Below are positions 1 to 64,000 of a DNA stretch of 64,000 nt, piece by piece; the first letter of the stretch is position 1, and every line of letters starts with the position of its first letter. Made by a program: the position numbers and the translations under genes. The notes under the pieces are model-generated. The model was not told where the DNA came from. It worked only from the letters and a program-made list of their open reading frames with translations, and made no database searches. The DNA lies in the NCBI GenBank assembly GCA_041645005.1, contig JBAZQW010000001.1:26728-90727 (forward strand), given 5' to 3'. This DNA comes from Desulfotomaculaceae bacterium. Lineage in GTDB: Bacteria > Bacillota > Desulfotomaculia > Desulfotomaculales > Pelotomaculaceae.

Positions 1-1309
1 CGACATTGCGTCCCGACGAGCCGGTCGCCGTCGCGACGCCTCGCAAAGCGATCCCTTCGATCTTTTTCAAGCAGGGAATGATCGTGACATTGGAAAAGAG
101 ACCGGCCCCGATCATGCCAACCACCGGTTCTCCAGGCGCATAGCTGACCGGGGGATTTACAATAACTTTATTTTCATGCTCTTTGGCCGCATCATATTCG
201 AGCAGGACGCCCAGATAATAAGGATGCTCTTTGCCAAGCAAAAGTTCATAGGCACGAAGCGCTTCATCGATCTTATAGCGGTGAGTGATGATCGGACCCA
301 TTTTGACCCGGCCGGAGGCGATCAGGTTCATATATTCTTCCATGTTGCCGGCCTGGGTCCAGCGGACCAGTCCGATCGGATAATTATTACCCTTGAATTC
401 CCAATTGGCGTCATATTTTCCCGGCCCGGTCGCCCTCGATACTATCAGAGAAAGCTCTTTATCAAAAAAGACATTGCGCGGCACATCAAGTTTGACCAAA
501 CCGCAGGCGACGATCTTCCCTTTTTCCCGCGTAATCTCGGCGGAGAGGTTCAGCGGATCATTGCTGCCGGTCGAGGCCATGATGATCGCCGCGTCAAAGC
601 CGTGACCGCCGGTCAGCAGTTTTGTTTTTGTCACCGCTTCGTGCCAATCGGTTGAACCGTCTTTTGCCCCCAGCTTAATCGCCAGATCGACTTTCTTCCT
701 GTCCAGATCATAACCGAAAGCCTCGCAGCCCCAGGCTTTCAATATCTGAACAGAAAGCTGGCCGAGCATGCCCAGGCCGATAACAGCTACCTTGGACCCG
801 AAGGTCAGCTCGGCGCAACGGATGGCGTGGATAGCAATCGCCGCAATATAAGAAAAAGCGGCGTCTTCGCAAGAAACACCATCCGGGATCTTTACGCAAT
901 CATTTTTCGGCACCCAGGTCACTTCGGAATGGGTGGCAAACAGGTCGCTGCCGCAGGCGACGCGGTCGCCGGCCTTGAACTCATCGACCCCTGCCCCAAT
1001 GGCAATGACTTCCCCCGACGAGCTATAGCCGAGCGGCTGGAGGGTTTCCAGGCGGCCTTTAACCGCCTGATAAGTTTCCCTTATCCCTTCGGTCTTGATC
1101 TTATCAATAACTCTGCGCACTAGATCGGGCCGCGACAGCGCTTTTTCGATCAGGTTCTGCTGGGCCAGGTTGACCATCAGCTTTTCCGTCCCGACGGAAA
1201 CAGCGGAATTCAAGGTTCGCACGAGCACCCCCCCCGGCCTGACCAACGGCGCGGGGACTTCGACAACCCTCAACTCTCCTGATTTATAATCCTGAATTAC
1301 TTGTTTCAT
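1..1309 (-). CDS. Bi-domain oxidoreductase, partial. It has an N-terminal Zn-dependent alcohol dehydrogenase/MDR-like domain followed by the start of a Gfo/Idh/MocA-type Rossmann domain. The 3' end runs off the left edge.
   Basis: Absent from the supplied ORF track because it is edge-truncated. Hand translation of the minus strand from ATG 1309..1307 is open to position 1: MKQVIQDYKSGELRVVEVPAPLVRPGGVLVRTLNSAVSVGTEKLMV...GDRVACGS...KVAVIGLGMLGQLSVQILKAWG. A second GxGxxG fold follows: ...GEPVVGMIGAGLFSNVTIIPCLKK. Confidence 0.75.
   Translation of the reverse strand, partial: MKQVIQDYKSGELRVVEVPAPLVRPGGVLVRTLNSAVSVGTEKLMVNLAQQNLIEKALSRPDLVRRVIDKIKTEGIRETYQAVKGRLETLQPLGYSSSGEVIAIGAGVDEFKAGDRVACGSDLFATHSEVTWVPKNDCVKIPDGVSCEDAAFSYIAAIAIHAIRCAELTFGSKVAVIGLGMLGQLSVQILKAWGCEAFGYDLDRKKVDLAIKLGAKDGSTDWHEAVTKTKLLTGGHGFDAAIIMASTGSNDPLNLSAEITREKGKIVACGLVKLDVPRNVFFDKELSLIVSRATGPGKYDANWEFKGNNYPIGLVRWTQAGNMEEYMNLIASGRVKMGPIITHRYKIDEALRAYELLLGKEHPYYLGVLLEYDAAKEHENKVIVNPPVSYAPGEPVVGMIGAGLFSNVTIIPCLKKIEGIALRGVATATGSSGRNV
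1228..1235 (-). repeat. G8 homopolymer on the coding strand, near the 5' end of the bi-domain oxidoreductase gene (codons RPGGV)
   Basis: Plus strand reads cacccccccc ggc, with C at 1228..1235. Confidence 0.9.
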
Positions 1310-1328
1310 ATGACCTTGACCGATCCTT

Positions 1329-2115
1329 TCATTTATTGCCAACACAATACACGGAGGGACGTAATCGAGGGACCAAGTTTTCCAACAGGGAGAGCAGTGA
1401 AAACCCCACTCTTGTCACCGGATTGACCGCTCTTTTGGCCCTGGTTCTGGTTGGTTCCGCTACCAGCGTGACCTCAATCCTCTTGAAGCCGGCCGCCGCC
1501 AACAATGACCGATATTCATCAGCATTATATTCCCTAAAATGCCCATAATAATGACCGGACATCCATTCAGCAAAAGGGATATAGGGGTGCTGTCCCAGCA
1601 TAATTTTCATAACTTTAAAAAAAGAAACGGCGTTCGGCGCGCCGAGAATAAATTCCCCTCCTATTTTAAGGACTCGCTTGATCTCCTTGAGTAGGCCCAC
1701 CGGGTTAACGGGCAGATGTTCAATGGACGTCAAAACAGGTCACGGCATCAAAATAGCCGTCGCTGTATGGGAGTTTACCCGCTAAGAGATTCCCAGTTTC
1801 ACTTTTGATCCCATATTGTTTCAGCAATTTCAGCGCTTGCTCACTGTTCCCCATCCGATTTCCCAACTCTGCGCTATATTCTTCAAAACGGTCGATCAAA
1901 TGAGCTTCAATCTCCTTGTCTAATTTTGCTACCGCGATCAAATTGACTCCCATTCCCCCTCCAACATCAAGTATCCTTCGGCCCTTTGACTTAAGGATCA
2001 GCTTCATCTCCAACAAATGCTTACCCCAGTTCTCCTGGCGAATTGTTTCTTCCGCCGGGTGACCGAATTCGGCGGCAGTCCTGTCGAGAGCGCCAGCTAG
2101 TGCCTGTTCATTCAT
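1329..2115 (-). pseudogene. Class I SAM-dependent methyltransferase split by a frameshift into ORFs 1720..2115 and 1329..1733
   Basis: The N-part carries motif I (ILDVGGGMGVNL) and ends ...FDAVTCFDVH*. The C-part continues in another frame: TSIEHLPVNPVGLLKEIKRVLKIGGEFIL. Deleting one C from GACGTCCATTGAA (minus strand, plus coordinates 1719..1731) restores FDVIEHLP, a canonical methyltransferase core. Confidence 0.6.
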
Positions 2116-3083
2116 TCGCTGATCGGCCTTTTCCTGAAAGTGTACATGATCTTATGCAGCAGATCGGCGGCAAAAGATTCATAAAAGAAGTGGTTGATCC
2201 AGGGATGGAGCCAGGCGGAAAGCGCCAGGTAATTCCAGATATCACGTTTTAAATAGAACTTACCGGAAGCAAACTTTTTGAAATCCTGGTTCAAACTGAT
2301 CTCGGAGATTTTGGGAACCAATTTGTTCTTATAAGGCAAGCGGTAGTGAAGGACCCTTTTTAGATCGACCCCCATCATCTGGCTGACAACCAGGTCAGCC
2401 GCTTCAAAATTATTGGCAACCAAAATGAAACCCCAGGCAAAAACATCGCCAACCATCGGACCGCTGCGGGTCAGGCCGTAAGTACCGTCAATGATCGTAA
2501 ATTTGCTTTTAGGTATTTGATTAATGGCAAAGATCGCTTCGTTAAAGACCGGATGATAGCGCAGGCGCATCGTATTCGGCACGCAGCCCCATTGATTCTT
2601 GTAAGAAAGACTGATGCCGGTCATCGCGTGGACCTTTGGCACCGGGAAAGTAATAAAGTGGTCACAGTCCTCAAGCAAAGCCGGGTATTCGACCTTGAAT
2701 TGCTTGAAATACTTGTTAATAGTCAAATAGCGCCAGGAACTTTTATCCTGGGAGAAATTCACGACTTTAATCCCATATTTCTTTTCGAGATCATATAAGC
2801 CATAATCATGGAAAGCATCTTTGACTTCATACGAATCATAACCGCCGTCTGATTCGCCAACCACGATCCGCGCGCCGAGATCCTTGAGAAGTTTGATGGT
2901 CGCTTCCAGGACCTTGGGTGTCGTGGTAACACCAGGCTTAAATTTTGGATAGGTCAAGTTTGGCTTCAACAACACTGTCATCCCCGGTTTTACCGCTTGG
3001 TCGAGGCCTACCCACTTAAAGCCGGCAGCCAGCTTCTCTAATTCATCATTTTTAAGCGCTTCAATAAATACTTTATGGCTCAT
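2112..3083 (-). CDS. DUF362-family protein (uncharacterised)
   Basis: 323-aa ORF. MTVLLKPNLTYPKFKPGVTTTPKVLEATIKLLKDLGARIVVGESDGG resembles the DUF362 core as I remember it. A GGGGAGGG Shine-Dalgarno lies 6 nt upstream of ATG 3083. Confidence 0.5.
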   Translation of the reverse strand: MSHKVFIEALKNDELEKLAAGFKWVGLDQAVKPGMTVLLKPNLTYPKFKPGVTTTPKVLEATIKLLKDLGARIVVGESDGGYDSYEVKDAFHDYGLYDLEKKYGIKVVNFSQDKSSWRYLTINKYFKQFKVEYPALLEDCDHFITFPVPKVHAMTGISLSYKNQWGCVPNTMRLRYHPVFNEAIFAINQIPKSKFTIIDGTYGLTRSGPMVGDVFAWGFILVANNFEAADLVVSQMMGVDLKRVLHYRLPYKNKLVPKISEISLNQDFKKFASGKFYLKRDIWNYLALSAWLHPWINHFFYESFAADLLHKIMYTFRKRPISE

Positions 3084-3130: not shown

Positions 3131-4267
3131 TCATTTCCTTTCGTTTCTCGCCATGATCTCAGCAAAGCAAGCTAAGGTTTCTTTGGCCGTCCTTTCCCAG
3201 GTGAACAACTTGGCCCTTTTGATCCCGGCAACCGACATATCCTCCGCAAGTTTTTTATCGGTCAAGATGAGTTCGATCTTGCCGGCCAGGTCAACCGGGT
3301 CATGCGGATCAAATATCAGCCCCGCTTCGCCGGCAATCTCTGGTAGGGCCGTAGCATCGGCGACCAAGACCGGCAGTCCGGCCGCCATGGCCTCGATCAC
3401 CGGTAGTCCGAAAGCCTCCACCAACGACGGCATGACAAAGATCGAAGCCCTTTTATAAATAGCATAAAGCTCGGCAAAAGTAGTTTTGCCCGTAAAGACA
3501 ACCCTTGGTCTGCCCGCCGGGTCGCTGATAAAGTTCTGGAGATACGCCTTTAGTTCTTCGGTTACCTCGCCAACCAGGACGATTTTGTATCTGTCTCTGA
3601 TTTCTCGAGGCAATTTATTATAAGCTTTCATTAAAACCTCATAATTCTTCCTTTTAGAAATGCTGGAGACAGAAAGAATATAAGGGGAATCCGTTTCACG
3701 TTCAGCCTGGCTTTTCACCAGCAAAGCATCAGTATCCGCGCCAAGATATATCGTAACCATGCGGTTGTCAGGCACTTTTAATTTAGCCAGCAGGGATAAT
3801 CGCGAAAAATTGGAGATATGGACCGATAAGTCGCTATGCCTGATCGACAGATCAGTTAGGACCCTCAAGGCTTTAAAGCGCAGCCTGGCAATAAATGACT
3901 CCCCCTTGATATTAAGGATAAAGTAAGGATAAATATTCAAGACCCACAACATTTTTTTGCAGGGGGCAAGAATAGAGCTGATATTGGCCGAACAGACTAA
4001 AAGACCGATCTTCAATCGCCAAACAAGAAAAGGAATGACAAATTGTTCCTGAAATATACGAATAAGAAGATTGTGTTTTTTCATCTTGACCAGCTTGACG
4101 TTTGCCGGCCAAGTTATTAAGTCAAATATCTTAATATAATTCTCTTCGGCCACAAAAAGATAATACTCGTTAGCGCTGTCCAGCTTGGCCAATAATGGCA
4201 CAAGGTTCCGCATGAAAGTCACCCCGCCGCCGATAGTTACCGAGAGGGCGTTAATCCCTATTTTCAT
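3131..4267 (-). CDS. Glycosyltransferase, GT4 family (GT-B fold)
   Basis: 378 aa. C-terminal signature: MPSLVEAFGLPVIEAMAAGLPVLVADATALPEIAGEAGLIFDP. Confidence 0.85.
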   Translation of the reverse strand: MKIGINALSVTIGGGVTFMRNLVPLLAKLDSANEYYLFVAEENYIKIFDLITWPANVKLVKMKKHNLLIRIFQEQFVIPFLVWRLKIGLLVCSANISSILAPCKKMLWVLNIYPYFILNIKGESFIARLRFKALRVLTDLSIRHSDLSVHISNFSRLSLLAKLKVPDNRMVTIYLGADTDALLVKSQAERETDSPYILSVSSISKRKNYEVLMKAYNKLPREIRDRYKIVLVGEVTEELKAYLQNFISDPAGRPRVVFTGKTTFAELYAIYKRASIFVMPSLVEAFGLPVIEAMAAGLPVLVADATALPEIAGEAGLIFDPHDPVDLAGKIELILTDKKLAEDMSVAGIKRAKLFTWERTAKETLACFAEIMARNERK

Positions 4268-5624
4268 ACTGGGCCCTTTCCTGTTTTACAACTTTGTTGA
4301 TCAAAACCAACATTCCCGCCAAAAACCAAAAATAAAAATTGGAAGGGAAAAGGTTCCACAGGTCCGTCACAAACCCAAGAACAATATATGATATAAAAAC
4401 CGAGAGAATGCCCGCGATCAGGCCGGAATAAAAAGGATCCCGGGTTAAACTCGCCGTTAGATTCGATTCTTTAAACAACAGATAGATCAAAACAATAAAC
4501 GTAATGAACGGCACAAGCCCGCTGGTAAAGAAAAGCAGGACATAGTAATTATCCATGCTGATCCCCTGCCCGCTCCATTTCTCATTGCCAGTCGTGTAAT
4601 TATCTTTCTTAAATTCTAAACTATCCGGTCCATTAGCCCAATCCTCAGGCGTTATTCCGGTAATAATCGAGAGGGGCTTATTTGACATTTGTTCCCAACC
4701 TTTTTGGGGTATGGATATGAGCCGGTAAGCGATCTCGTTTTTACCGCCTTCGGAAGAAAACGCCCTGACATATCTGAATAAAATGCCGGGATTATAAATC
4801 GTCACGGCGAAGATGATCAGCAAGCCGGCAATAAATGACAGCATTATCGACCGGTAATATTTTTTTCGGAATAAAAGGAAAATAACCCCCAGCATTAAAG
4901 CCAGGAGTGCGCCGCGAGAAAAAGTAAAAAAAAGGCAAACGGCCAACAAAATCATTGATAAACGCGAAAAGATTTTATTGATAAGATAAACATTATTCAC
5001 ATATAATCCAAAGAACAGCAGCAGGAATGTGACTAAATAAATACCGAGATTGTTCGGATTAAATAAAGTCGAATAGATACGCGCGATCGCTATCCCGGAG
5101 CCCATTTCATTAAACATAAAAACAAAACCCATATAAAAGAAGAGCAATTGGATCAGGCCGAGCAAAGCGACAATAAGACTTAGGGATAACATGATGTTGG
5201 TAAATTTCTTCAGGTCACTAGCGGCAAAAAATGACGGGACGATGAACATTAAGGGGATAAACTCGATCGCATTCCTCATCCCGATCATGAAGGAATAGTT
5301 CTCTTTGGGTAAAGCAAAAAATAATTGAATAATAATTATAGCCAAAAATAATATGGCAACGATCGAGGCATTCATGATTTTCAATTTTGTTTCTTTTCGA
5401 ACAAAGATATATAGCAACCAGATCAGATATATTAGGCCGATAAAAATATCACGAGAGCTCTTTTGCAGGAATGTTCCGGCCTCATATGAATTTGGGGTTA
5501 AATAAGCATAATAATAACTAAGGGGCGCAAAGATAAGAAACCCATATAAAACATATTTTGGCCGACCAAGCACCAAAACAATGACGGCGAACATGAATAA
5601 TATTACAGATATTACTTCAATCAT
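4251..5624 (-). CDS. O-antigen polymerase/ligase-family (Wzy-like) polytopic membrane protein
   Basis: Highly hydrophobic with many helices by eye. It contains the FFTFSRGALLALMLGVIFLLF loop typical of the Wzy_C family. I prefer ATG 5624 to the ORF-track TTG 5630. Confidence 0.7.
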   Translation of the reverse strand: MIEVISVILFMFAVIVLVLGRPKYVLYGFLIFAPLSYYYAYLTPNSYEAGTFLQKSSRDIFIGLIYLIWLLYIFVRKETKLKIMNASIVAILFLAIIIIQLFFALPKENYSFMIGMRNAIEFIPLMFIVPSFFAASDLKKFTNIMLSLSLIVALLGLIQLLFFYMGFVFMFNEMGSGIAIARIYSTLFNPNNLGIYLVTFLLLFFGLYVNNVYLINKIFSRLSMILLAVCLFFTFSRGALLALMLGVIFLLFRKKYYRSIMLSFIAGLLIIFAVTIYNPGILFRYVRAFSSEGGKNEIAYRLISIPQKGWEQMSNKPLSIITGITPEDWANGPDSLEFKKDNYTTGNEKWSGQGISMDNYYVLLFFTSGLVPFITFIVLIYLLFKESNLTASLTRDPFYSGLIAGILSVFISYIVLGFVTDLWNLFPSNFYFWFLAGMLVLINKVVKQERAQYENRD

Positions 5625-32393: not shown

Positions 32394-32402
32394 GATCATC
32401 TC

Positions 32403-37840: not shown

Positions 37841-38074
37841 TCATTTTTTCTTCTCTAATTCCAGGATCACTTTCTTGTAGGCCCGTTTCACTTTTTCCGG
37901 CAAGGTCGGGCTTAACACGCGGAGGATCTCCCGGCCCATCACCCGGTATTGCCCGCCGATCTTGGCTACCCGAAGCACTCCCTGCCTGATCAGGCGGCGA
38001 AAAGTGGAATCGGAGATCTTTAAAATAGAGATAGTTTCTTGCGGCGTATAGACACTATTTTCATCAACAACCAT
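37841..38074 (-). CDS. Small helix-turn-helix DNA-binding protein (excisionase/MerR-like HTH_17 type)
   Basis: 77 aa. YTPQETISILKISDSTFRRLIRQGVLRVAKIGGQYRV matches the excisionase-family HTH pattern. Confidence 0.7.
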   Translation of the reverse strand: MVVDENSVYTPQETISILKISDSTFRRLIRQGVLRVAKIGGQYRVMGREILRVLSPTLPEKVKRAYKKVILELEKKK

Positions 38075-38141
38075 AATATATTAAGTATAGCAAATAAGCA
38101 GAGTTTGTCAAGAGGTCAAATATCTAGTCAAAACTTGTCAA
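38075..38141 (-). promoter_or_regulatory. Sigma70-like promoter with extended -10 and an array of TTGAC(A) motifs directly upstream of the HTH gene; likely leaderless or near-leaderless
   Basis: Minus-strand reading: TTGACAAgttTTGACTagataTTTGACCtcTTGACAaactctgcttattTGcTATACTtaatatattATG. The -35 TTGACA is at 38111..38106, followed by a 16-nt spacer and TGn + TATACT at 38089..38084. Only 9 nt separate the -10 from the ATG, and there is no Shine-Dalgarno. Identical heptamers TTGACAA (palindromic TTGnCAA) lie at 38105..38111 and 38135..38141, 30 bp apart. Confidence 0.5.
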
Positions 38142-57819: not shown

Positions 57820-58869
57820 TCAGATCATGTCCTTCGTAATCCATTGATCCGCCTTAATATCTCTCCGGGCAACCCGACCAATAACCTTGCGCTCGTCTCT
57901 CGATTTAATCCCCAAACCCGGTCGTTTGACTGTCAACATTTCCGACGTTATCATCGTTCCGCTTTTTATATCATGAACAGCGTGCAAACTGCGACGAGCC
58001 AGGCGAAAATTTTCTCTTTCAGAATCAAGAACAACCTTTTTCCCGTCCCCAAGCAGTAACTCCGTATTCCTGAGATCGGCCACAAATGACCTTAGTTCAT
58101 CTGGCTCCAGAGAAAATGGGTGATCGGGACCGGTCTGTTTCTTATCCAAGGTGATATGCTTTTCGATCACACAAGCCCCCAGGGCGACCGCGGCAATCGA
58201 AGAGATCGGGGTTAAGGTGTGATCAGAAAAGCCAATCGGCAATTTGAACGTTTCTTTTAACGTATTGATTGCGCGTAAATTAATGTCCCGGTAAACGGCC
58301 GGATACTGGCTAACACAATGAAGCAGAATAATATCCCGGCTACCCGACCTCCTTAAAACAGTCAACGCTTCCCTAATCAATTTTAAGTCGCTATTGCCGG
58401 TCGAGATAATGACTGGTTTGCCAGTCTGACCGATCGCTTTGAGCAATCGGAAATCATCCGTCTCATAGCTGGCAATCTTGAAGAAAGGAACATTCAAGCG
58501 ATCCAGTTCTTTGACCGCCGCCAGGTCAAAAGGCGATGAGGCAAACAAGACGGCCCGTTCGCGACATCTCCGCCTAAGAACCTTATGCCATTCTCTCGGC
58601 ATTTCCAGTCTTTTTATCAGCTCGTATGGCCCTTCGCCCGCTCTTGAGCGGCCCTCCATTTCGGAAAGCCGCGGAGTGAATTTTGAATAAAGCGTGTCAG
58701 CACTGTAAGTCTGAAATTTGACCGCATCGACCCCAGCCTCAGCCGCAAGATCGATCATCCGCAACGCCGTCTTCAAATCTCGATTATGGTTAGAGCCTAT
58801 TTCGGCAATGATCAAAACCGGTTCGCCCTGGCCGACCAATCGGCCCCCGATCTTAACTTTATTTTTCAT
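57820..58869 (-). CDS. Nonulosonic acid synthase, PseI/SpsE-like NeuB-family member with SAF domain
   Basis: Motifs PVLIIAEIGSNHN, DAVKFQTY, GFSDHT and KRPGLGI. Confidence 0.85.
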   Translation of the reverse strand: MKNKVKIGGRLVGQGEPVLIIAEIGSNHNRDLKTALRMIDLAAEAGVDAVKFQTYSADTLYSKFTPRLSEMEGRSRAGEGPYELIKRLEMPREWHKVLRRRCRERAVLFASSPFDLAAVKELDRLNVPFFKIASYETDDFRLLKAIGQTGKPVIISTGNSDLKLIREALTVLRRSGSRDIILLHCVSQYPAVYRDINLRAINTLKETFKLPIGFSDHTLTPISSIAAVALGACVIEKHITLDKKQTGPDHPFSLEPDELRSFVADLRNTELLLGDGKKVVLDSERENFRLARRSLHAVHDIKSGTMITSEMLTVKRPGLGIKSRDERKVIGRVARRDIKADQWITKDMI

Positions 58870-59648
58870 CTCACTCCCGCTCCCCTAAGTAATTTTCTTA
58901 ATATCACGGAATTCTTCTTGAACGCTTCTAGCGTTTTGTATGACCGCTCCGGTATCTCCAGAGTAATTTTAGCGGACCGTCTTTTTTGAACCATGATCAT
59001 GAACAGCCTCTTAAGGTCGATATTCCCATCCCCGAGCGCCAGATGCTGATCAAAACAACCAGTCGTATTGGCGTCACAAATATGGATGATCCCGGGCTTT
59101 AAGGCTAAATAACGCTCGGCATATTCCAGGTAATCCTGACCAAGAGCGAAAGCCGCTTTGACCGCGTGCGCGACATCAAAGCAAAAACCGACCCCCGCCA
59201 CCCGCTGGATCTCTCTGATCTCCGCCGGCGTGCTGCCGACCCCCTTGGTCTCGAGCAGGGAAATAAACGGCATATTCTCAACCAACAGCCGATCGTCCTT
59301 CAGCGCTTTAAGCTGTTTCGCCGTTTCCCGGCAATCTCCCTTTAAGCCGGGGTGAATGATAATTTCCCGCGCCTTTAATTTATCGGCAAAGGCAACCGCC
59401 TCGGCAAGCAACTGATGATTACCTTTTCGTCGATCTTTGTCAGCCAGATTAAGCCCGTACATTTCATGTGGCGCGTGGATCACGTACGGGACATTTAGCC
59501 CCAGCCAATTTGAAATTGTTCCCCGAAAACTGCCCGGCACAGCGAAAAGCTCGACGTAATCACAATCACCACGAGCGAAAAGCTCGCCAGCCGTTTTAAT
59601 CGCGGAAATATTCCTTGAAAACAATTTTAAGCCAACCTGATATCTCAT
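58866..59648 (-). CDS. Xylose-isomerase-like TIM-barrel protein (sugar-phosphate isomerase/epimerase family)
   Basis: 260 aa. Motifs IIHPG, LVENMPF and FDVAHA...ICDAN...HLALGDGNID. Confidence 0.6.
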   Translation of the reverse strand: MRYQVGLKLFSRNISAIKTAGELFARGDCDYVELFAVPGSFRGTISNWLGLNVPYVIHAPHEMYGLNLADKDRRKGNHQLLAEAVAFADKLKAREIIIHPGLKGDCRETAKQLKALKDDRLLVENMPFISLLETKGVGSTPAEIREIQRVAGVGFCFDVAHAVKAAFALGQDYLEYAERYLALKPGIIHICDANTTGCFDQHLALGDGNIDLKRLFMIMVQKRRSAKITLEIPERSYKTLEAFKKNSVILRKLLRGAGVR

Positions 59649-59649
59649 T

Positions 59650-60537
59650 TTATTTATTTTTGACCGGCATGAAAAACCCAGAGATCTCTCGTCCTAGCCC
59701 AAGCTCGCTTAGCGCGCGGTAATAATTATTGGTCTTATCTACCGAGATGGAGTGCATCAGATTCTCGACCGCCACTCTTTCCTTATGGCATGACTTGCCT
59801 TTTGTCTTATCCCTAACATAATTCGTGTTCTCATTCATCAACCTTAGATCGATGGGATAATCAGAAATCATATCGACAGTTTTCCAGCCGCTCCGCAGGC
59901 AAATATTCCTGAGACCTTCATTATTGAAATAATGAAGATGATCGGGTAAGCAAACCCAAAACTCATCGTCAATATAGCCGTTACGAAGCAGAAACGTCTG
60001 GAGGCTGGAAAAATCATTTGGCACTTCGATAACGCACACTCCCTGGTCCGAGATAATTGATCGACAATCCTTAAGCAATTTATAAGGATCAAGCACATGC
60101 TCAAGAACATTATCAAGCCAGATCACGTCATATCTGTTCTCCTTGGCTATTATCGCGGATAGATTTTCATAGATATCACCGACAATCAGGTCATCGGCAC
60201 ATTCCGGATTGTTTTTTTTACATCCATATTCGCTGTAATCCAGGCCAACAACCTGCCACCCTTTACTCTTAAAGAATTTGAGTGCCCAACCCTCGCCGCA
60301 CCCAACATCGAGAAAAGTTTTCTTATTACCGCCCAAATGTTCTTTTATTACCTGATATCTTTGTTCGATCTTATTTTGGAAATATTCGACCTCGGCCCTA
60401 GAATAAACGCTTTCATAAGACCCTTTATTTTCCTGAAAATAATTTTCCTTATAATAGTCTGTTAACTTTTCTTTTGAGGGCATATCGATCGCGCTGAAGA
60501 AGCCGTATTCGTTTTTCCGAACCTTATCGGTCATCAT
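59650..60537 (-). CDS. Class I SAM-dependent methyltransferase
   Basis: Motifs FLDVGCGEGWALKFF and VIWLDNVLEHVLDP. Confidence 0.8.
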   Translation of the reverse strand: MMTDKVRKNEYGFFSAIDMPSKEKLTDYYKENYFQENKGSYESVYSRAEVEYFQNKIEQRYQVIKEHLGGNKKTFLDVGCGEGWALKFFKSKGWQVVGLDYSEYGCKKNNPECADDLIVGDIYENLSAIIAKENRYDVIWLDNVLEHVLDPYKLLKDCRSIISDQGVCVIEVPNDFSSLQTFLLRNGYIDDEFWVCLPDHLHYFNNEGLRNICLRSGWKTVDMISDYPIDLRLMNENTNYVRDKTKGKSCHKERVAVENLMHSISVDKTNNYYRALSELGLGREISGFFMPVKNK

Positions 60538-61847: not shown

Positions 61848-62618
61848 TTATTTTCTCTCCTTCACAATCTTGTCTTCGCGCAAAGATTTTTGATAACCTT
61901 CATTTCTGGTTATATGGGAATTTATCTGCTCAAGCTCCGGATATTTCGCCAAATATTCAAGAATATCATCCATAGAAAATAAATTGTTTTTTTGATAAAG
62001 CGCGCTGTAGATCTTGCCGACAAATTCCAGGTCTTCCTGATTATCCAATGTCCAACGCTTCTCCTTAAGGTTCGTCTTATATTCAACTCCCGCCAGCTTA
62101 AAAAACGCCGGATTCTTCCTGATATAAGCGGTCACATGTTCGCGTTCCGAAGAAAGTTTCGCCTCTATCCAGGCTTTTTCTAAAGCCGCGGCGCTGAAGA
62201 CTTCGACATCTTCTCCATCCGGAAAAGTTTCATTGATGGTATTCGAAGTGTAATCAGCTCGATCCTTGATATGCTTGCGCAAAACCGTTTCGATCACCTG
62301 TGGGTCCATGAGCGGGCAATCGGCCGTTATCCTGATCACCGTTTTGGCCTTGAACAACTTTGCCGCTTGATAATACCTGTCCAACACATCATCTTCGGAC
62401 CCGCAATAAACGCTTATCCCCTGCTCCGCGCAAAGCTTAATGATCGGCAGATCGCCTTTCGATACGGTGGTGGCGACTACCACCTCGTTGACCAGGCGGC
62501 AGGCCTGGACCCTTCGAATCACGTGCTCCAACACTGTTTTATCTGCAATCTTTATCAGTGCCTTACCCGGCAATCTGGTCGAACCCATTCGCGCTTGAAT
62601 TATGGCGACTATTTTCAT
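61848..62618 (-). CDS. SpsF/PseF-like cytidylyltransferase
   Basis: Motifs MKIVAIIQARMGSTRLPGKALIKI and RITADCPLMDP. Confidence 0.8.
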   Translation of the reverse strand: MKIVAIIQARMGSTRLPGKALIKIADKTVLEHVIRRVQACRLVNEVVVATTVSKGDLPIIKLCAEQGISVYCGSEDDVLDRYYQAAKLFKAKTVIRITADCPLMDPQVIETVLRKHIKDRADYTSNTINETFPDGEDVEVFSAAALEKAWIEAKLSSEREHVTAYIRKNPAFFKLAGVEYKTNLKEKRWTLDNQEDLEFVGKIYSALYQKNNLFSMDDILEYLAKYPELEQINSHITRNEGYQKSLREDKIVKERK

Positions 62619-63497
62619 TTATGCGCCAACTTTCTTCCCGGCCCAATTAAACGGCAAAAGAATCTCTTCATTTTGTTCTTTTAACTGGTCTAATTCTGGT
62701 AACAGGCCGGCCACTTCCGAGGAGCGACCGGCCGCGAGGATCAGTTCTTTCAAGTTTTCCGGACTATCCACCCCAACAATCACCTGGTCCACCTGATCAT
62801 TTAAAACAGCATAATTTAAACAGATCGCCTGGATCGATATGTTATTCAGGGAAGCAAGGGAGCGCAGACTGGTTATTTTATCCTTGATAGCATTAAATGA
62901 CGGGTCAAGCTCTGCCGGATTTTTGAATGCCAATCCCTGTAAAAACACCGACCGGACATGGACCTCGATTCCTTTCCGCTTAAGGGTCGGTAAATAATCT
63001 TCGAAACGGCGGTCAAAAATACTATACGGAAACTGAACAAGATCAAAAGGGACTTCATTGGTCAGCAGCTCATCAAGCTCTTTTGGATAATAAAGAGAAA
63101 ATCCGATCTTGGCGATTTTACCAGAGCGCTTTTGTTCCACAAGCCAATCATAGATAACTGGTTGAAAACGGTAAGTCTCAAAATCATGGAAAATATATCC
63201 GTATAAAGAAGTCCGCCCCAACCTCTGAAGTGTTTCCGCCAGATAATTTGGCGCTTCCGCAACCTGGCATTTTGGCAACTTTGAAACCAGTTGAAAATAA
63301 TTCTTTTTGAAACGTAAATATTCACCAATAACTGTTTCGCTTTCGCCGTAACCATAGGCCGTATCCAAAAGATCAACTCCGGCCGCCGCTGCTTCGTCCA
63401 GGATCGCAAATACCTCTTCTCGCGGAACTTTACCCCGTTGGTTGTTGACGCCGTAATCCAATCCGAATTGAACCGTCCCCAAAGTAAGCTTGTTCAT
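62619..63497 (-). CDS. Aldo/keto reductase
   Basis: Motif LGTVQFGLDYGVNNQRGKVPREEVFAILDEAAAAGVDLLDTAYGYGESE. Confidence 0.8.
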   Translation of the reverse strand: MNKLTLGTVQFGLDYGVNNQRGKVPREEVFAILDEAAAAGVDLLDTAYGYGESETVIGEYLRFKKNYFQLVSKLPKCQVAEAPNYLAETLQRLGRTSLYGYIFHDFETYRFQPVIYDWLVEQKRSGKIAKIGFSLYYPKELDELLTNEVPFDLVQFPYSIFDRRFEDYLPTLKRKGIEVHVRSVFLQGLAFKNPAELDPSFNAIKDKITSLRSLASLNNISIQAICLNYAVLNDQVDQVIVGVDSPENLKELILAAGRSSEVAGLLPELDQLKEQNEEILLPFNWAGKKVGA

Positions 63498-64000
63498 GGC
63501 AAACCTGCTTCCGAAATAACTTGTTTAAATGTGTCGATCACATAAGTGACATCTTCATCGTTCATTTTAGGGAATAGCGGCAAAGTGATGGCTCCGTGAT
63601 AATAAGCTTCCGCGTTGGGGCATAAGCCGGGCTGATAGCCCAGCTGGCGATAATAAGGCTGAAGATAGACCGGAAAATAATGAACATTAACTCCAATTCC
63701 TTTACTCCTAAGTTGTTCGAATATCTCTTTCCTCTTGTCCGAAACAACGACCGGATAGATATGCCAGGCAGAAGCTCGCCCTGGTTTAACTTTAATGGTC
63801 TTGACACCAGCCAAGCCGGCCAAGGCCCGCTCGTATTGAATAACGATCTCTTGCCGTCGTTTGATAAACTTATCCAGTTTTTCCAGCTGTTTTATCCCCA
63901 AAGCTGCCTGGAAGTCGGTCAGGCGGTAATTGAAGCCGAGGTGATGCAGCTCGTAATACCAAGCTCCTTCGTCCGGCCTGGTCAAGACACTCTGTTCGCG
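63494..64000 (-). CDS. DegT/PseC-type aminotransferase, C-terminal part only; the 5' end runs off the right edge
   Basis: The frame stays open from 63985 to the window edge. YELHHLGFNYRLTDFQAALGIKQLEKLDKFIKRRQEI is a typical DegT C-domain. Confidence 0.8.
   Translation of the reverse strand, partial: REQSVLTRPDEGAWYYELHHLGFNYRLTDFQAALGIKQLEKLDKFIKRRQEIVIQYERALAGLAGVKTIKVKPGRASAWHIYPVVVSDKRKEIFEQLRSKGIGVNVHYFPVYLQPYYRQLGYQPGLCPNAEAYYHGAITLPLFPKMNDEDVTYVIDTFKQVISEAGLP

What the first reader, a model, noticed from the sequence alone, without database searches (positions are those of the whole stretch)
1..64000. Single-strand, translationally coupled 64-kb glycan mega-locus with six CMP-activating domains but only two NeuB-type synthases
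All credible genes are on the minus strand. About 20 junctions are 4-nt ATGA/GTGA overlaps and only five gaps exceed 30 nt. I count six cytidylyltransferase-family domains at 14412..15179, 25174..25977, 27788..28474, 39167..40534 (C-half), 44640..45365 and 61848..62618. Against these there are two nonulosonate synthases (34958..36001 and 57820..58869) and no KdsA-like synthase. Either several different (non)ulosonic acids are activated, or some of these enzymes act on unknown acidic sugars. The scale and the CMP-synthetase excess are unusual compared with characterised Pse/Leg/Neu loci.
Basis: partly seen in the sequence, partly recalled or inferred. Interest (0 to 1): 0.7.

Follow-up and report, generated by a model that had tools for sequence, protein, structure and literature searches.

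The report
Sugar-acid polysaccharide locus, six cytidylyltransferase domains
This is part of a surface-polysaccharide gene locus of at least 76 kb from an uncultured Margulisbacteria bacterium: its six CMP-transferase-like domains are real but of four different kinds, only two pair with the two sialic-acid-type synthases, and two belong to a Kdo-synthetase-like clade, spread across bacteria and archaea, that probably activates an unidentified sugar acid.

Summary
All credible genes are on the minus strand, 99% of the window is coding, and 22 junctions are 4-nt overlaps. Six CTP_transf_3 domains and two NeuB+SAF synthases sit at the stated coordinates. No KdsA-like gene lies in the window or the readable flanks.

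The six domains are not equivalent.
- 61848-62618 is SpsF-like and follows PseB/PseC, so it pairs with NeuB 57820-58869.
- 27788-28474 is a canonical NeuA type in the Leg-type operon with NeuB 34958-36001.
- 44640-45365 and the C-half of 39167-40534 belong to widespread, conserved clades that lack the catalytic Asp pair. The fusion also lacks the P-loop lysine.
- 14412-15179 and 25174-25977 score as KdsB. They keep the CTP and metal residues but carry clade-invariant changes at four Kdo-pocket positions.

Relatives of 14412-15179 (62-87% identical) occur in Archaea, CPR, Firmicutes and Chloroflexota. In 57 of 80 genomes they sit next to an HpcH/HpaI pyruvate aldolase. This window lacks that aldolase and has a GT2::Zn-ADH fusion in its slot.

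The cytidylyltransferase excess is real and recurs in other uncultured lineages. One "gap" holds a promoter-like site and a small HTH_17 gene, so the locus is probably not one transcript.

The parts
63494..64000 (-). 3' end of the PseC aminotransferase gene. PseB and PseC lie just upstream of the window.
   Evidence: Pfam DegT 137 bits. The full gene in L001 scores 519 on TIGR03588 PseC (cut-off 423), and PseB scores 550 (cut-off 407).
62619..63497 (-). Aldo/keto reductase
   Evidence: Pfam Aldo_ket_red 121 bits
61848..62618 (-). CT6: SpsF-like cytidylyltransferase, the likely CMP-nonulosonate synthetase of the Pse-type module
   Evidence: CTP_transf_3 113 bits. Best solved structure is 6OEW, 135 bits. 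R, K and both KdsB-style Asp are kept. An SpsF-like/AKR arrangement after PseC is described in PMC7371886.
60534..61844 (-). Class III (GSA-like) aminotransferase
   Evidence: Aminotran_3 145 bits; NCBIfam
59650..60537 (-). SAM methyltransferase
   Evidence: Methyltransf_23
58866..59648 (-). Xylose-isomerase-like TIM barrel protein
   Evidence: AP_endonuc_2 64.8 bits
57820..58869 (-). NeuB2: nonulosonate synthase, probably Pse type
   Evidence: NeuB 294 bits plus SAF. NeuB_NnaB 364 (below 399) and PseI 335 (below 340). PseB/PseC lie upstream.
56976..57818 (-). SDR epimerase/reductase
   Evidence: Epimerase 115 bits
56260..56979 (-). YfcE-type metallophosphoesterase. It may take the nucleotide-sugar hydrolase role (inference).
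   Evidence: Metallophos_2 104 bits; TIGR00040 72 bits, above 56
55293..56273 (-). ATP-grasp ligase
   Evidence: ATP-grasp_3
54235..55302 (-). FemAB-like acyl/aminoacyl transferase
   Evidence: Acetyltransf_6
52553..54235 (-). LIC12162-family putative transferase (a)
   Evidence: Precomputed PF27859; weak TIGR04331 hit; 40% identical to 49429-51141
51846..52556 (-). Formyltransferase-like protein
   Evidence: Formyl_trans_C_2 70.8 bits
51113..51868 (-). PIG-L/LmbE deacetylase
   Evidence: PIG-L 98.9 bits
49429..51141 (-). LIC12162-family putative transferase (b); start refined to ATG 51141
48467..49432 (-). Unknown 321-aa protein with weak similarity to a PLP-enzyme family
   Evidence: No Pfam hit; TIGR04422 27 bits, below 75
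46554..48470 (-). Unknown 638-aa soluble protein with a GT-B-like C-terminus
   Evidence: No Pfam or NCBIfam hit; sequence read; 45% identical homolog in Saganbacteria locus L087
45362..46543 (-). GFO/IDH/MocA oxidoreductase, the usual neighbour of CT5-type genes
   Evidence: contexts
44640..45365 (-). CT5: divergent NeuA-like cytidylyltransferase clade with N/I/K at NmCSS Q104/D209/D211
   Evidence: CTP_transf_3 83.5 bits; PseF 80 bits, below 205.7; clade alignment; residue table; named 'hypothetical protein' in NCBI records
43586..44677 (-). SAM methyltransferase
41763..43589 (-). Carbamoyltransferase
   Evidence: Carbam_trans_N 268 bits and Carbam_trans_C 233 bits
40531..41535 (-). GDSL-like esterase/acyltransferase
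   Evidence: Lipase_GDSL_2 35 bits
39167..40534 (-). GT2::CT4 fusion: a GT2 glycosyltransferase joined to a degenerate NeuA-like domain
   Evidence: Glycos_transf_2 92.6 bits plus CTP_transf_3 46.6 bits. More than 3,700 homologs, the 120 listed 55-96% identical. The P-loop deletion and 'IEVR' are present in all 18 aligned members. Residue table.
38124..39170 (-). Ldh_2-family 2-oxo/2-hydroxy acid dehydrogenase
   Evidence: Ldh_2 356 bits; NCBIfam
38084..38111 (-). Sigma-70-like promoter match (TTGACA-16-TATACT, with TG)
   Evidence: 11 of 12 positions
37841..38074 (-). Small HTH_17 gene (77 aa), paralog of the one that heads the locus upstream of ugd
   Evidence: Pfam HTH_17 39.2 bits, above 27
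36015..37751 (-). Fused TMD-NBD ABC exporter (possible flippase)
   Evidence: ABC_tran 117 bits plus ABC_membrane; 5 TM-like segments
34958..36001 (-). NeuB1: nonulosonate synthase of NeuB/LegI type
   Evidence: NeuB 333 bits plus SAF; TIGR03569 468, above 399
34314..34961 (-). PIG-L deacetylase
33557..34309 (-). Formyltransferase
32403..33560 (-). NeuC/LegG-type hydrolysing UDP-sugar 2-epimerase
   Evidence: TIGR03568 441, above 236
31989..32399 (-). Hexapeptide N-acetyltransferase
30865..31992 (-). DegT/PseC/LegC-type aminotransferase
   Evidence: DegT 402 bits
29873..30868 (-). UDP-GlcNAc 4,6-dehydratase-like protein (Polysacc_synt_2)
   Evidence: 357 bits; PseB 318, below 408
28471..29859 (-). 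B12-binding radical SAM enzyme (probable methylase)
27788..28474 (-). CT3: canonical NeuA/LegF/PseF-type CMP-nonulosonate synthetase
   Evidence: CTP_transf_3 81 bits; PseF 167.5, full length but below 205.7; NeuA structures 6IFD (129 bits) and 1EYR; R12/K21/Q104/D209/D211 all kept
25977..27791 (-). GT-B-fold protein of an unnamed family (604 aa), candidate transferase
   Evidence: No Pfam or NCBIfam hit; 32 homologs, those with a source name called 'hypothetical protein'; AF2 pLDDT 87.9; Foldseek matches GT-B folds such as TagF/TarL and UDP-GlcNAc 2-epimerases
25174..25977 (-). CT2: KdsB-like cytidylyltransferase with an altered sugar pocket
   Evidence: CTP_transf_3 129 bits; PRK05450.1-5 243, above 193; pocket residues Q/I/F/D/M; followed by a GTB645-type gene in relatives
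23745..25184 (-). Methyltransferase::GT2 fusion
22964..23713 (-). SAM methyltransferase
20617..22962 (-). YfhO-like polytopic membrane protein
   Evidence: YfhO 41.6 bits; 9 TM-like segments
18673..20610 (-). TIGR04326-like 'surface carbohydrate biosynthesis' protein (645 aa), conserved partner of CT2
   Evidence: TIGR04326 80 bits, below 250; synteny in L088-L090 and L005
17723..18676 (-). D-2-hydroxyacid dehydrogenase, a core member of the CT1 cassette
   Evidence: 2-Hacid_dh_C 197 bits; present in 50-56 of 80 CT1 loci
17064..17726 (-). Cyclase/formamidase-family hydrolase, a cassette member
   Evidence: Cyclase 80.7 bits; present in 25-28 of 80 loci
15188..17071 (-). GT2::Zn-ADH fusion. It sits where the aldolase sits in most other genomes. 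Start refined to GTG 17071.
   Evidence: mutually exclusive with the aldolase; its GT2 domain is 39% identical to that of GT2::CT4; start
14412..15179 (-). CT1: KdsB-like cytidylyltransferase of a cross-domain clade with an altered sugar pocket
   Evidence: CTP_transf_3 170 bits; PRK13368 311, above 255; KpsU 1GQ9 153 bits; 250 relatives in GTDB genomes, the best 80 at 62-87% identity; residue analysis
13564..14415 (-). RmlD-like reductase
   Evidence: TIGR01214 240, above 224
12657..13571 (-). GT2 glycosyltransferase
11624..12670 (-). Divergent DegT-like PLP enzyme
10638..11624 (-). FemAB-like transferase
8465..10657 (-). FemAB-like::polysaccharide deacetylase fusion
7749..8468 (-). Sugar-1-phosphate nucleotidyltransferase (not CTP_transf_3)
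   Evidence: NTP_transferase 123 bits
6755..7747 (-). LegB-like NDP-sugar 4,6-dehydratase
   Evidence: TIGR04180 459.5, against a cut-off of 475
5617..6738 (-). GT4 glycosyltransferase
4251..5624 (-). Wzy/O-antigen-ligase-type polymerase
   Evidence: Wzy_C 47.8 bits; 9 TM-like segments
3131..4267 (-). GT4 glycosyltransferase
2112..3083 (-). DUF362 protein
1329..2115 (-). Methyltransferase split by a frameshift (1720-2115 plus 1329-1733)
1..1309 (-). 5' part of a Zn-ADH::GFO fusion gene (720 aa in the contig)

Best explanation
The window is the central 64 kb of a one-strand surface-polysaccharide locus of at least 76 kb. Wza and Wzz lie upstream. Wzy, GT4 and GT2 enzymes and an ABC exporter lie inside. 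The organism is an uncultured Candidatus Margulisiibacteriota bacterium. The locus looks like a stack of separately mobile sugar-acid modules, each with its own cytidylyltransferase (CT) next to a candidate transferase.

1. Pse-type module: PseB-PseC-AKR-CT6(SpsF-like)-...-NeuB2. This would make a tailored CMP-pseudaminic-type acid.

2. Leg-type module: ABC-NeuB1-PIG-L-formyltransferase-NeuC-acetyltransferase-aminotransferase-dehydratase-rSAM-CT3. This would make a CMP-legionaminic-type acid. CT3 is the only fully canonical NeuA-type enzyme.

3. Accessory module: GFO-CT5 ... GT2::CT4-Ldh_2. Both CT-like domains have lost the canonical metal-binding Asp pair. The fused one has also lost the P-loop lysine. 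They are conserved, non-canonical proteins. Most likely CT5 makes some activated donor and the GT2 uses it, while the fused CT-like domain binds nucleotide rather than catalysing transfer.

4. Double KdsB-like module: GT-B604-CT2-...-GT-B645-2HADH-cyclase-GT2::ADH-CT1-RmlD-GT2. These two enzymes keep the chemistry of CMP-Kdo synthetase but have a remodelled acceptor pocket. I infer that they activate a 2-keto-3-deoxy acid other than Kdo. In most other genomes a class II pyruvate aldolase with a phosphatase would make that acid, which parallels KdsA/KdsC/KdsB. In this window the synthase is not identifiable.

Shown: the family assignments, the residue patterns, the gene neighbourhoods and the taxonomic spread. 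Inferred: which CT serves which synthase, the non-Kdo substrate, and the roles of CT4 and CT5.
For: Gene content and order. Source contig and flanks.

Organism: CT5 and GT-B604 are 100% identical to proteins of an NCBI Candidatus Margulisiibacteriota MAG.

CT6: best solved structure is 6OEW. SpsF is needed for Leg transfer to the spore surface, but not for Leg synthesis, in B. subtilis (PMC7439481). An SpsF-like/AKR protein after PseC has been proposed as the PseF substitute in a Vibrio (PMC7371886).

CT3: matches NeuA structures and keeps all five catalytic residues.

CT5 and CT4:
- Clade-wide loss of D209/D211, and of the K21 loop in CT4.
- In N. meningitidis CMP-Neu5Ac synthetase, D209A is inactive, D211A lowers kcat 15,000-fold, and Q104N/E lower kcat/Km 200- to 47,000-fold (PMC2901514).
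- CT5-type and GT2::CT genes are neighbours in five other contigs (and L086).

CT1 and CT2:
- Both pass NCBIfam KdsB subfamily cut-offs.
- R10, K19, Q98, D100 and D235 are invariant in 78 homologs. H181Q (77 of 78), Y183I (71), E210D (77) and Q211M (76) contrast with H/Y/E/Q in five solved CMP-Kdo synthetases, including kinetically characterised Aquifex KdsB.
- Homologs at 62-87% identity occur in 10 archaeal, 9 CPR, 2 Syntrophomonadaceae, 4 Chloroflexota and 1 Actinomycetota genomes.
- An HpcH/HpaI aldolase lies immediately upstream in 57 of 80 loci.
- L057 has SIS isomerase, IMPase-family phosphatase, aldolase and CT1 in a row.

The GT2 domains of GT2::CT4 and GT2::ADH are paralogs (39% identity), and each sits beside a CT. 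GT-B604 is a confident GT-B fold. CT2 is followed by a GT-B645-type gene in all close relatives.
Against: - Both KdsB-like proteins pass curated KdsB subfamily cut-offs. CT1 even scrapes past the TIGR00466 equivalog cut-off (157.9 against 155.2). Margulisbacteria are probably diderm, so housekeeping Kdo could feed them, as it feeds KpsU in E. coli capsule loci.
- The pocket argument rests on sequence alignment to structures, not on a model with ligand.
- The window itself has no aldolase or HAD phosphatase, so the aldolase link is by homology of the CT only. 18 of the 80 loci have neither aldolase nor GT2::ADH.
- CT5-type proteins are strongly conserved. In L085 one is the only stand-alone CT within 10 kb of a NeuB module. 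CT5 may therefore be a working CMP-nonulosonate synthetase with a non-canonical active site, which would change the pairing I propose.
- No biochemical data exist for any of these clades.
- The AF2 model of GT2::CT4 was too poor to use.
Confidence: 0.55

Rival explanations
1. The two KdsB-like proteins are ordinary capsule-type CMP-Kdo synthetases like KpsU. They use Kdo made by housekeeping KdsA/KdsC elsewhere in the genome. The polysaccharide then simply contains Kdo plus two nonulosonic acids, and nothing is missing.
For: NCBIfam KdsB subfamily models are passed: CT1 311 (above 255), CT2 243 (above 193), and CT1 TIGR00466 157.9 (above 155.2). The best solved structure for CT1 is KpsU 1GQ9. 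All CTP and metal residues are kept. E. coli kps loci carry kpsU without kdsA (established knowledge; kpsU is mentioned in PMC12199768).
Against: Four pocket positions (H181, Y183, E210, Q211) are identical in five solved CMP-Kdo synthetases. In 71-77 of 78 clade members, and in both window proteins, they are replaced in the same way. Close homologs (62-74%) are found in methanogens, Thermoplasmatales, Hadarchaeia, CPR, Syntrophomonas and Chloroflexota, which by established knowledge make no LPS. 57 of 80 loci carry their own candidate synthase, a pyruvate aldolase. No KdsA appears in any of these loci.
Confidence: 0.2
2. All six domains are active synthetases and the cell makes up to six different CMP-activated (non)ulosonic acids. 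The two NeuB products would be diversified by tailoring before activation, with each variant needing its own synthetase.
For: All six pass the Pfam CTP_transf_3 threshold. The locus is rich in tailoring enzymes: two PIG-L/formyltransferase pairs, a carbamoyltransferase, several methyltransferases, radical SAM, ATP-grasp and FemAB-like enzymes. The CT5 and GT2::CT4 families are under strong purifying selection. L. interrogans also has several NeuA and NeuB genes and makes several nonulosonic acids (PMC3438082).
Against: CT4 lacks the P-loop lysine loop and has E/R at the Asp pair. CT5 has N/I/K at Q104/D209/D211. The equivalent mutations cut N. meningitidis CNS activity by 10^2 to more than 10^4. 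CT5-type and GT2::CT genes occur in loci with no NeuB within 10 kb. CT1 and CT2 are of KdsB type, not NeuA type.
Confidence: 0.15
3. CT5 is the true CMP-legionaminic-type synthetase for NeuB1, with a lysine replacing the metal site. CT3 serves something else, or is redundant.
For: GFO plus CT5-type genes sit beside NeuB/NeuC/PIG-L/formyltransferase modules in L085 and L087. In L085 no other stand-alone CT lies within 10 kb. The CT5 P-loop is intact. In a sister contig (L088) the rSAM-CT3 pair is absent between the dehydratase and GT-B604.
Against: CT3 has every canonical residue and lies in the same overlap-packed run of genes as NeuB1. CT5-type genes are also found far from any NeuB. NCBI's pipeline does not recognise them as cytidylyltransferases.
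Confidence: 0.1

Closest known systems
Kdo activation pathway KdsD-KdsA-KdsC-KdsB, and capsule KpsU of E. coli
   Same: CT1 and CT2 have the KdsB fold and pass KdsB-subfamily HMMs. They keep the CTP-binding Arg and Lys, Q98 and both metal Asp. In related loci the partners follow the same logic: isomerase, C3-donor condensing enzyme, phosphatase, then cytidylyltransferase.
   Different: Four Kdo-pocket residues are changed across the whole clade. The condensing enzyme, where present, is an HpcH/HpaI class II pyruvate aldolase, not KdsA. The phosphatase is a HAD-IA or IMPase type, not KdsC. The clade occurs in Archaea, CPR and monoderm lineages. This window has no synthase at all, and a GT2::Zn-ADH fusion sits in the aldolase slot.
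Leptospira interrogans nonulosonic-acid / rfb locus (Ricaldi et al. 2012, PMC3438082)
   Same: It is a long LPS-type locus with several NeuA, NeuB and aminotransferase paralogs. Shared accessory families are named after Leptospira genes (LIC12162, LIC13510/TIGR04326). A CT1 homolog with its aldolase cassette occurs in Leptospira gomenensis (L040).
   Different: There the synthetases and synthases are both duplicated (two and two), and both synthetases are of NeuA/LegF type. Here six CTP_transf_3 domains of four clades face two NeuB.
Bacillus subtilis sps legionaminic acid pathway (SpsF) and the Vibrio SpsF-like/AKR Pse cluster
   Same: CT6 is an SpsF-type cytidylyltransferase next to an aldo/keto reductase, directly after PseC. 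The Vibrio B9-25K2 cluster has the same content, and there the SpsF-like enzyme was proposed to replace PseF.
   Different: Here AKR and CT are separate genes, followed by a class III aminotransferase, a methyltransferase and a TIM-barrel protein before NeuB. No PseG or PseH homologs were recognised. None of this has been tested biochemically.
Campylobacter jejuni flagellin glycosylation locus (own knowledge)
   Same: It has several nonulosonic acid pathways (Pse, Leg) side by side with many tailoring genes.
   Different: In C. jejuni synthases and synthetases are matched (three NeuB, three CT). The glycans go onto flagellin through Maf proteins, not into a Wza/Wzz/Wzy polysaccharide.

Membership tests
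CMP-Kdo synthetase (KdsB/KpsU, EC 2.7.7.38): CT1 14412-15179 and CT2 25174-25977 | Sequence membership: CTP_transf_3 fold and curated KdsB models | tested here: met
   Pfam 170 and 129 bits. PRK13368 311 (above 255) for CT1. PRK05450.1-5 243 (above 193) for CT2. TIGR00466: CT1 157.9 (above 155.2), CT2 150.4 (below 155.2).
CMP-Kdo synthetase (KdsB/KpsU, EC 2.7.7.38): CT1 and CT2 | CTP-binding and two-metal catalytic residues (E. coli R10, K19, Q98, D100, D235) | tested here: met
   All five are present in CT1, CT2 and 77-78 of 78 homologs.
CMP-Kdo synthetase (KdsB/KpsU, EC 2.7.7.38): CT1 and CT2 | Kdo-binding pocket of the C-terminal domain (H181, Y183, E210, Q211), conserved in solved L-CKS and K-CKS | tested here: not met
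   Q, I, D and M in CT1, CT2 and 71-77 of 78 homologs. H, Y, E and Q in 1GQ9, 1VH3, 8EES, 3TQD and 2Y6P. Y185F also occurs in Aquifex KdsB, so it is not diagnostic.
CMP-Kdo synthetase (KdsB/KpsU, EC 2.7.7.38): CT1 and CT2 | Occurrence in organisms or loci with a Kdo supply (KdsA/KdsC, LPS or Kdo capsule) | tested here: not met
   No KdsA in the window, the flanks or 80 related loci. At least 26 of the 80 closest homologs are in Archaea, CPR, Syntrophomonadaceae, Chloroflexota or Actinomycetota. The rest of the Margulisbacteria genome could not be read.
CMP-Kdo synthetase (KdsB/KpsU, EC 2.7.7.38): CT1 and CT2 | Catalysis of CTP + Kdo -> CMP-Kdo + PPi | not testable with these tools
   Needs an enzyme assay.
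CMP-nonulosonate synthetase (NeuA/LegF/PseF): CT3 27788-28474 | Catalytic residues R12, K21, Q104, D209, D211 (N. meningitidis numbering) and full-length similarity to NeuA | tested here: met
   R/K/Q/D/D. 6IFD 129 bits and 1EYR 108 bits over the full length. The PseF equivalog score of 167.5 is below its cut-off of 205.7, so the exact substrate is open.
CMP-nonulosonate synthetase (NeuA/LegF/PseF): CT5 44640-45365 | Catalytic residues R12, K21, Q104, D209, D211 | tested here: not met
   R/K/N/I/K. K at the D211 position is nearly invariant and the D209 position is always I/V in the 19 aligned clade members. PseF 80 bits, below 205.7.
CMP-nonulosonate synthetase (NeuA/LegF/PseF): C-terminal domain of 39167-40534 (CT4) | Catalytic residues R12, K21, Q104, D209, D211 | tested here: not met
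   K / deleted / E / E / R. The same pattern appears in all 18 aligned family members. The Pfam match covers only profile positions 20-130 of 217.
SpsF-type cytidylyltransferase: CT6 61848-62618 | Similarity to the SpsF/6OEW group and a location inside a nonulosonic acid pathway | tested here: met
   6OEW 135 bits over residues 1-231. It lies between PseC/AKR and NeuB2. Activity was not tested.
NeuB-type nonulosonate synthase: 34958-36001 and 57820-58869 | NeuB TIM-barrel plus SAF domain, and curated equivalog score | tested here: met
   Both have NeuB+SAF. 34958-36001 passes TIGR03569 (468, above 399). 57820-58869 falls just under both NeuB (364, below 399) and PseI (335, below 340).
Wzx/Wzy-dependent polysaccharide assembly locus | Wzy polymerase, Wzz chain-length regulator, Wza exporter and a flippase | tested here: inconclusive
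   Wzy_C is in the window. Wza (Poly_export) and Wzz lie upstream on the contig. No Wzx (Polysacc_synt) gene was found in the window; a fused ABC exporter is present instead.

The most novel reading that the evidence does not exclude
The KdsB-like clade represented twice in this window, together with the HpcH/HpaI aldolase, phosphatase, 2-hydroxyacid dehydrogenase, SDR and methyltransferases that accompany it in most genomes, may encode an undescribed pathway. It would be horizontally mobile and cross-domain (Bacteria, CPR, Archaea), and would lead to a CMP-activated 3-deoxy-2-ulosonic acid that is neither Kdo nor a NeuB-derived nonulosonic acid. Separately, the CT5 and GT2::CT4 families may be a second, non-canonical branch of CMP-transferase-like proteins that work as a donor-maker/transferase pair. 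If so, many uncultured microbes would carry surface sugar acids of kinds not yet seen chemically.
Probability: 0.35. Interest if true: 0.8.

Novelty: new variant of a known kind. Interest (0 to 1): 0.62.

Why it matters
Sialic-acid-like sugars and Kdo are the only sugar classes known to be activated as CMP derivatives. They shape how microbial surfaces are recognised by hosts, phages and immune systems. This locus shows that genome annotation hides at least three uncharacterised clades under the labels 'KdsB', 'NeuA-like' or 'hypothetical'.

One of them is annotated as CMP-Kdo synthetase in organisms that have no LPS, and it usually sits next to a pyruvate aldolase. That makes a concrete, testable prediction of a new activated sugar acid. 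Cultured carriers are available for testing: Syntrophomonas wolfei subsp. methylbutyratica and Leptospira gomenensis.

It also warns against counting 'CMP-synthetases' from Pfam hits alone. Two of the six domains lack residues that are essential in the model enzyme.

Tried and rejected
- Rfam at gathering thresholds over the whole window: no RNA family.
- Search for an HpcH aldolase or the cassette's HAD phosphatase in the window and flanks, by tblastn and a purpose-built HMM: nothing. The aldolase link cannot be claimed for this locus itself.
- KdsA search by tblastn in the window, flanks and 80 loci: nothing.
- AF2 model of the GT2::CT4 fusion: pLDDT 68, with the CT-like half mostly below 50. 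I did not use it or send it to fold search.
- Foldseek of GT-B604 gave only a generic GT-B fold (TagF/TarL, UDP-GlcNAc 2-epimerases, OGT/SPY; TM about 0.4 on the query). No specific sialyl- or Kdo-transferase family emerged.
- Literature searches for HpcH aldolase with cytidylyltransferase or nonulosonic acid, and for KdsB homologs in archaea, found no description of the cassette. The E. coli KdsB structure paper was not in the library.
- I first counted Y185F as part of the clade signature. I withdrew it after finding F at that position in the kinetically characterised Aquifex KdsB.
- A JGI metagenome scan for CT2 gave only three close relatives, so a neighbourhood statistic like that for CT1 was not possible.
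- I considered that one KdsB-like gene might be the housekeeping kdsB. I rejected this because both share the clade-specific pocket and both sit inside the overlap-packed operon.
- The first 10.3 kb of the source contig, and the longer NCBI contig (123.5 kb), could not be fetched with the look-up rules.

Full report
**1. The observation**

The window was read in all six frames. Every ORF with family support is on the minus strand. I scanned 58 minus-strand proteins against Pfam. The one long plus-strand ORF I tested (176-655) has no hit. With the small HTH_17 gene found later, my 59 gene models cover 99.2% of the window.

I chose starts at or next to the upstream stop. On that basis 22 junctions are 4-nt ATGA/GTGA/TTGA overlaps. 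Only five intergenic spaces exceed 30 nt: 227, 372, 31, 47 and about 410 nt. The last holds the second half of a methyltransferase split by a frameshift (1720-2115 plus 1329-1733).

All six claimed cytidylyltransferase domains match Pfam CTP_transf_3 above its gathering score, at the stated coordinates. Both NeuB+SAF synthases are there. Nothing matches DAHP_synth_1/KdsA.

The window lies on an 87,754-bp metagenome contig (record position = 83,806 minus window position).
- Upstream, on the same strand, are a small HTH_17 gene, ugd, wza, wzz, gmd, an fcl-like gene, an epimerase, PseB and PseC.
- Downstream are a Zn-ADH::GFO fusion, DUF386, a GT4 and an epimerase, up to the contig end.

The one-strand locus is therefore at least 76 kb long. 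No further NeuB or KdsA lies in the 10 kb upstream or the 3.9 kb downstream.

**2. A correction to "single translationally coupled unit"**

The 372-nt gap between Ldh_2 and the ABC exporter is not empty. It contains a sigma-70-like promoter match (TTGACA-16-TATACT with a TG; 11 of 12). A 77-aa gene follows at 37841-38074. That gene is HTH_17 (39 bits against a cut-off of 27). It is a clear paralog of the 68-aa HTH_17 gene that heads the locus upstream of ugd. The locus thus probably has at least two heads of the same design. Overlapping stop and start codons show tight packing. They are not proof of coupling.

**3. The organism**

The 44640-45365 and 25977-27791 proteins are 100% identical to proteins of an NCBI MAG named Candidatus Margulisiibacteriota bacterium. 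The closest related loci are in Candidatus Saganbacteria MAGs (L005 and L087).

**4. The six domains are of four kinds**

I call them CT1 to CT6, from low to high coordinates.

*CT6 (61848-62618)*
- Only its N-half matches KdsB models. Its best solved relative is 6OEW, an uncharacterised "cytidylyltransferase" (135 bits). This is the SpsF type.
- It sits in PseB-PseC-AKR-CT6-aminotransferase-MT-TIM barrel-NeuB2.
- In B. subtilis, spsF is needed to transfer legionaminic acid to the spore surface but not to make it (PMC7439481).
- In a Vibrio Pse cluster, an SpsF-like/AKR protein after PseC was proposed to replace PseF (PMC7371886).
- I therefore pair CT6 with NeuB2. This is inference.

*CT3 (27788-28474)*
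- It aligns over its full length with NeuA structures (6IFD 129 bits, 1EYR 108 bits).
- It keeps R12, K21, Q104, D209 and D211 of the N. meningitidis enzyme.
- It closes the overlap-packed run ABC-NeuB1-PIG-L-formyltransferase-NeuC-acetyltransferase-aminotransferase-dehydratase-rSAM-CT3.
- NeuB1 passes the NeuB/LegI-type equivalog (468, above 399) and NeuC passes its own (441, above 236).
- I pair CT3 with NeuB1. This is inference.

*CT5 (44640-45365)*
- It keeps the P-loop but has N, I and K at Q104, D209 and D211.
- Among the 19 aligned clade members the Lys is nearly invariant and the D209 position is always Ile or Val.
- In the Neisseria enzyme D209A is dead, D211A lowers kcat 15,000-fold, and Q104N/E lower kcat/Km 200- to 47,000-fold (PMC2901514).
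- The clade is large: 884 hits, with the 120 listed at 57-100% identity. NCBI names its members "hypothetical protein".

*CT4 (C-half of 39167-40534)*
- It is fused to a GT2 domain.
- It has PV(K/R)G followed by an eight-residue deletion that removes the SKGxPxKN loop.
- It has E at Q104 and "EVR" at the Asp pair.
- This pattern holds in all 18 aligned family members.
- The fusion family is very large and conserved: more than 3,700 hits, with the 120 listed at 55-96% identity over the full length.

CT5-type and GT2::CT genes are neighbours, often with GFO, Ldh_2 and an ABC exporter, in contigs attributed to Saganbacteria, Planctomycetes and Nitrospirae and in unassigned metagenome contigs. Some of these lie next to a Leg-type NeuB module (L085, L087). 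Others have no NeuB within 10 kb (L110, L111, L112).

**5. The two KdsB-like proteins**

CT1 (14412-15179) and CT2 (25174-25977) pass NCBIfam KdsB subfamily cut-offs. Their best solved relatives are KpsU and Coxiella KdsB. Three results argue that they are not ordinary CMP-Kdo synthetases.

*(a) Taxonomic spread.* A scan of one genome per GTDB species with CT1 found 250 relatives. The best 80 are 62-87% identical. They come from Saganbacteria, Nitrospirota, Omnitrophota, Planctomycetes and Bacteroidota. They also come from lineages that by established knowledge make no LPS:
- 10 archaeal genomes (Methanoregula, Thermoplasmatales, Hadarchaeia)
- 9 CPR genomes
- Syntrophomonas wolfei (an isolate) and another Syntrophomonadaceae
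- 4 Chloroflexota and 1 Actinomycetota

*(b) Residues.* I aligned 78 of these homologs with CT1, CT2 and four solved CMP-Kdo synthetases.
- The CTP and metal residues R10, K19, Q98, D100 and D235 are invariant.
- Four pocket positions are changed across the clade: H181 to Q (77 of 78), Y183 to I (71), E210 to D (77) and Q211 to M (76).
- CT1 and CT2 both carry these changes.
- The kinetically characterised Aquifex KdsB has H, Y, E and Q at these positions. It has F at 185, so I dropped Y185F from the signature.

*(c) Neighbourhood.* I called and clustered ORFs in the 80 loci.
- In 57 loci a 255-aa protein lies just upstream of the CT on the same strand. In 37 of 53 measurable cases the gap is at most 51 nt.
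- It is an HpcH/HpaI class II pyruvate aldolase (Pfam 125 bits; HpaI, YfaU and GarL models at 155-193 bits, all below their equivalog cut-offs).
- The usual companions are a D-2-hydroxyacid dehydrogenase (50-56 loci), an SDR (51), a cyclase-family hydrolase (25-28), a HAD-IA phosphatase (33) and methyltransferases.
- In L057 the order is SIS isomerase, 2-hydroxyacid dehydrogenase, IMPase-family phosphatase, aldolase, CT. This is the KdsD/KdsA/KdsC/KdsB logic carried out with non-homologous parts.
- tblastn with the same E. coli KdsA query found no KdsA-like sequence in any of the 80 loci.

**6. What this window has instead**

The window and five of the 80 related loci (L005 Saganbacteria, L012, L015, L023, L060) lack the aldolase and the HAD phosphatase. 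In their place a GT2::Zn-ADH fusion lies next to the CT. The aldolase and the fusion never occur together (57 against 5 loci, none with both).

The order here is GT-B604, CT2, [MT::GT2, MT, YfhO], GT-B645, 2-hydroxyacid dehydrogenase, cyclase, GT2::ADH, CT1, RmlD-like, GT2. This is syntenic with L005.

CT2 has only three close relatives in JGI metagenomes. In each it is followed by a GT-B645-type protein, which is TIGR04326-like at 80 bits.

The source of the acid that CT1 and CT2 would activate is therefore not visible in this locus. It could be made elsewhere in the genome, or by enzymes I cannot recognise.

**7. Candidate transferases**

Five soluble proteins of 560-645 aa have no Pfam hit in the tool's library: 52553, 49429, 46554, 25977 and 18673. 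The first two are 40% identical paralogs of the LIC12162 family.

For 25977-27791 I gathered its 32 homologs; those that carry a source name are all called "hypothetical protein". The AF2 model is confident (pLDDT 87.9, pTM 0.89). Foldseek places it in the GT-B superfamily, with UDP-GlcNAc 2-epimerases, TagF/TarL, OGT/SPY and MurG, but in no specific family.

The GT2 domains of GT2::CT4 and GT2::ADH are paralogs (39% identity over 215 residues). Each sits beside a cytidylyltransferase, CT5 and CT1 respectively. This suggests CT-plus-transferase pairs as the repeating design. This is inference.

**8. Verdict on the interpretation**

But "six CMP-activating domains" lumps together four kinds:
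- two enzymes that match the two NeuB synthases one to one;
- two conserved domains that lack residues essential in the model enzyme.

The excess is unusual against characterised Pse, Leg and Neu loci. It recurs widely in uncultured lineages.

**9. Comparison with known systems**

The closest are listed here.
- The Kdo pathway and KpsU: same fold and chemistry, but a different pocket, different partners and different hosts.
- The Leptospira nonulosonic-acid/rfb locus: shared accessory families, but two synthetases for two synthases there.
- The B. subtilis sps pathway and the Vibrio SpsF-like Pse clusters: relevant to CT6.
- The C. jejuni flagellin glycosylation locus: matched synthases and synthetases.

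I found no description of the aldolase/KdsB-like cassette, of the CT5 clade or of the GT2::CT fusion in the searchable literature. That library is incomplete, so this is absence of evidence only.

**10. Limits**

- No biochemistry exists for any of these clades.
- The pocket argument is by alignment only.
- The rest of the Margulisbacteria genome, including any kdsA or aldolase elsewhere, could not be read.
- The pairing of CTs with synthases and transferases rests on gene order alone.
- CT5 may still be an active synthetase with a lysine in place of the metal site. In L085 it is the only stand-alone CT near a NeuB module.

Noticed in passing
window 37841-38074 (gene) and 38084-38111 (promoter-like); L001:1517-1723: A 77-aa HTH_17 gene with a strong sigma-70-like promoter match lies in the largest 'gap'. 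It is a paralog of the 68-aa HTH_17 gene that precedes ugd at the head of the locus. The two sub-operons may share a small dedicated regulator type.
   Followed up: partly
window 1329-2115: A class I SAM methyltransferase is split by a single frameshift into 1720-2115 and 1329-1733. The break falls within the '...DAVTCFDV | IEHLP...' motif. It is either a pseudogene or an assembly error.
   Followed up: partly
window 51113-52556 and 33557-34961: A PIG-L deacetylase plus formyltransferase pair occurs twice, once downstream of each NeuB (25-32% identity between copies). This suggests N-deacetylation and re-acylation (formylation) of both nonulosonic acids.
   Followed up: no
window 49429-54235: Two LIC12162-family paralogs (40% identical, about 560-570 aa) flank the first formyltransferase/PIG-L pair. 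The Pfam library offered by the tool does not contain this family; only the precomputed PF27859 mark does.
   Followed up: partly
window 15188-17071, 39167-40534, 23745-25184: There are three different GT2 fusion proteins: GT2::Zn-ADH, GT2::CT-like and methyltransferase::GT2. The first two GT2 domains are close paralogs (39% identity).
   Followed up: partly
L088 (JGI contig Ga0265296_1000628) against window 18673-30868: A sister contig has CT2 at 88%, GT-B645 at 86% and 2HADH at 93% identity. It lacks the rSAM-CT3 pair and the MT::GT2-MT-YfhO insert, and its GT-B604 is only 44% identical. The locus is a mosaic that gains and loses modules between close relatives.
   Followed up: partly
window 4001-6000 and 52001-54000: GC content drops locally to 40.7% and 42.4%, against about 49% overall. 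The dips fall over the Wzy polymerase and the first LIC12162-family gene, as is usual for horizontally exchanged serotype-specific genes.
   Followed up: no
window 6755-12670: A third diamino-sugar route seems present. It comprises a sugar-1-P nucleotidyltransferase, a LegB-like dehydratase (459.5 against a cut-off of 475), a divergent DegT-like enzyme and two FemAB-like transferases, one of them fused to a polysaccharide deacetylase. It has no third NeuB. It may make an acylated bacillosamine-type sugar, or it may feed NeuB1.
   Followed up: no
L110, L112 (contigs carrying CT5 homologs): Other uncultured lineages have three or four CTP_transf_3 genes within 10 kb and no NeuB. L110 (Planctomycetes) has cyclase, CT5-like, GT2::CT, CT and HAD in a row. 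L112 has KdsB-like, GT2::ADH, CT, 2HADH and CT5-like.
   Followed up: partly
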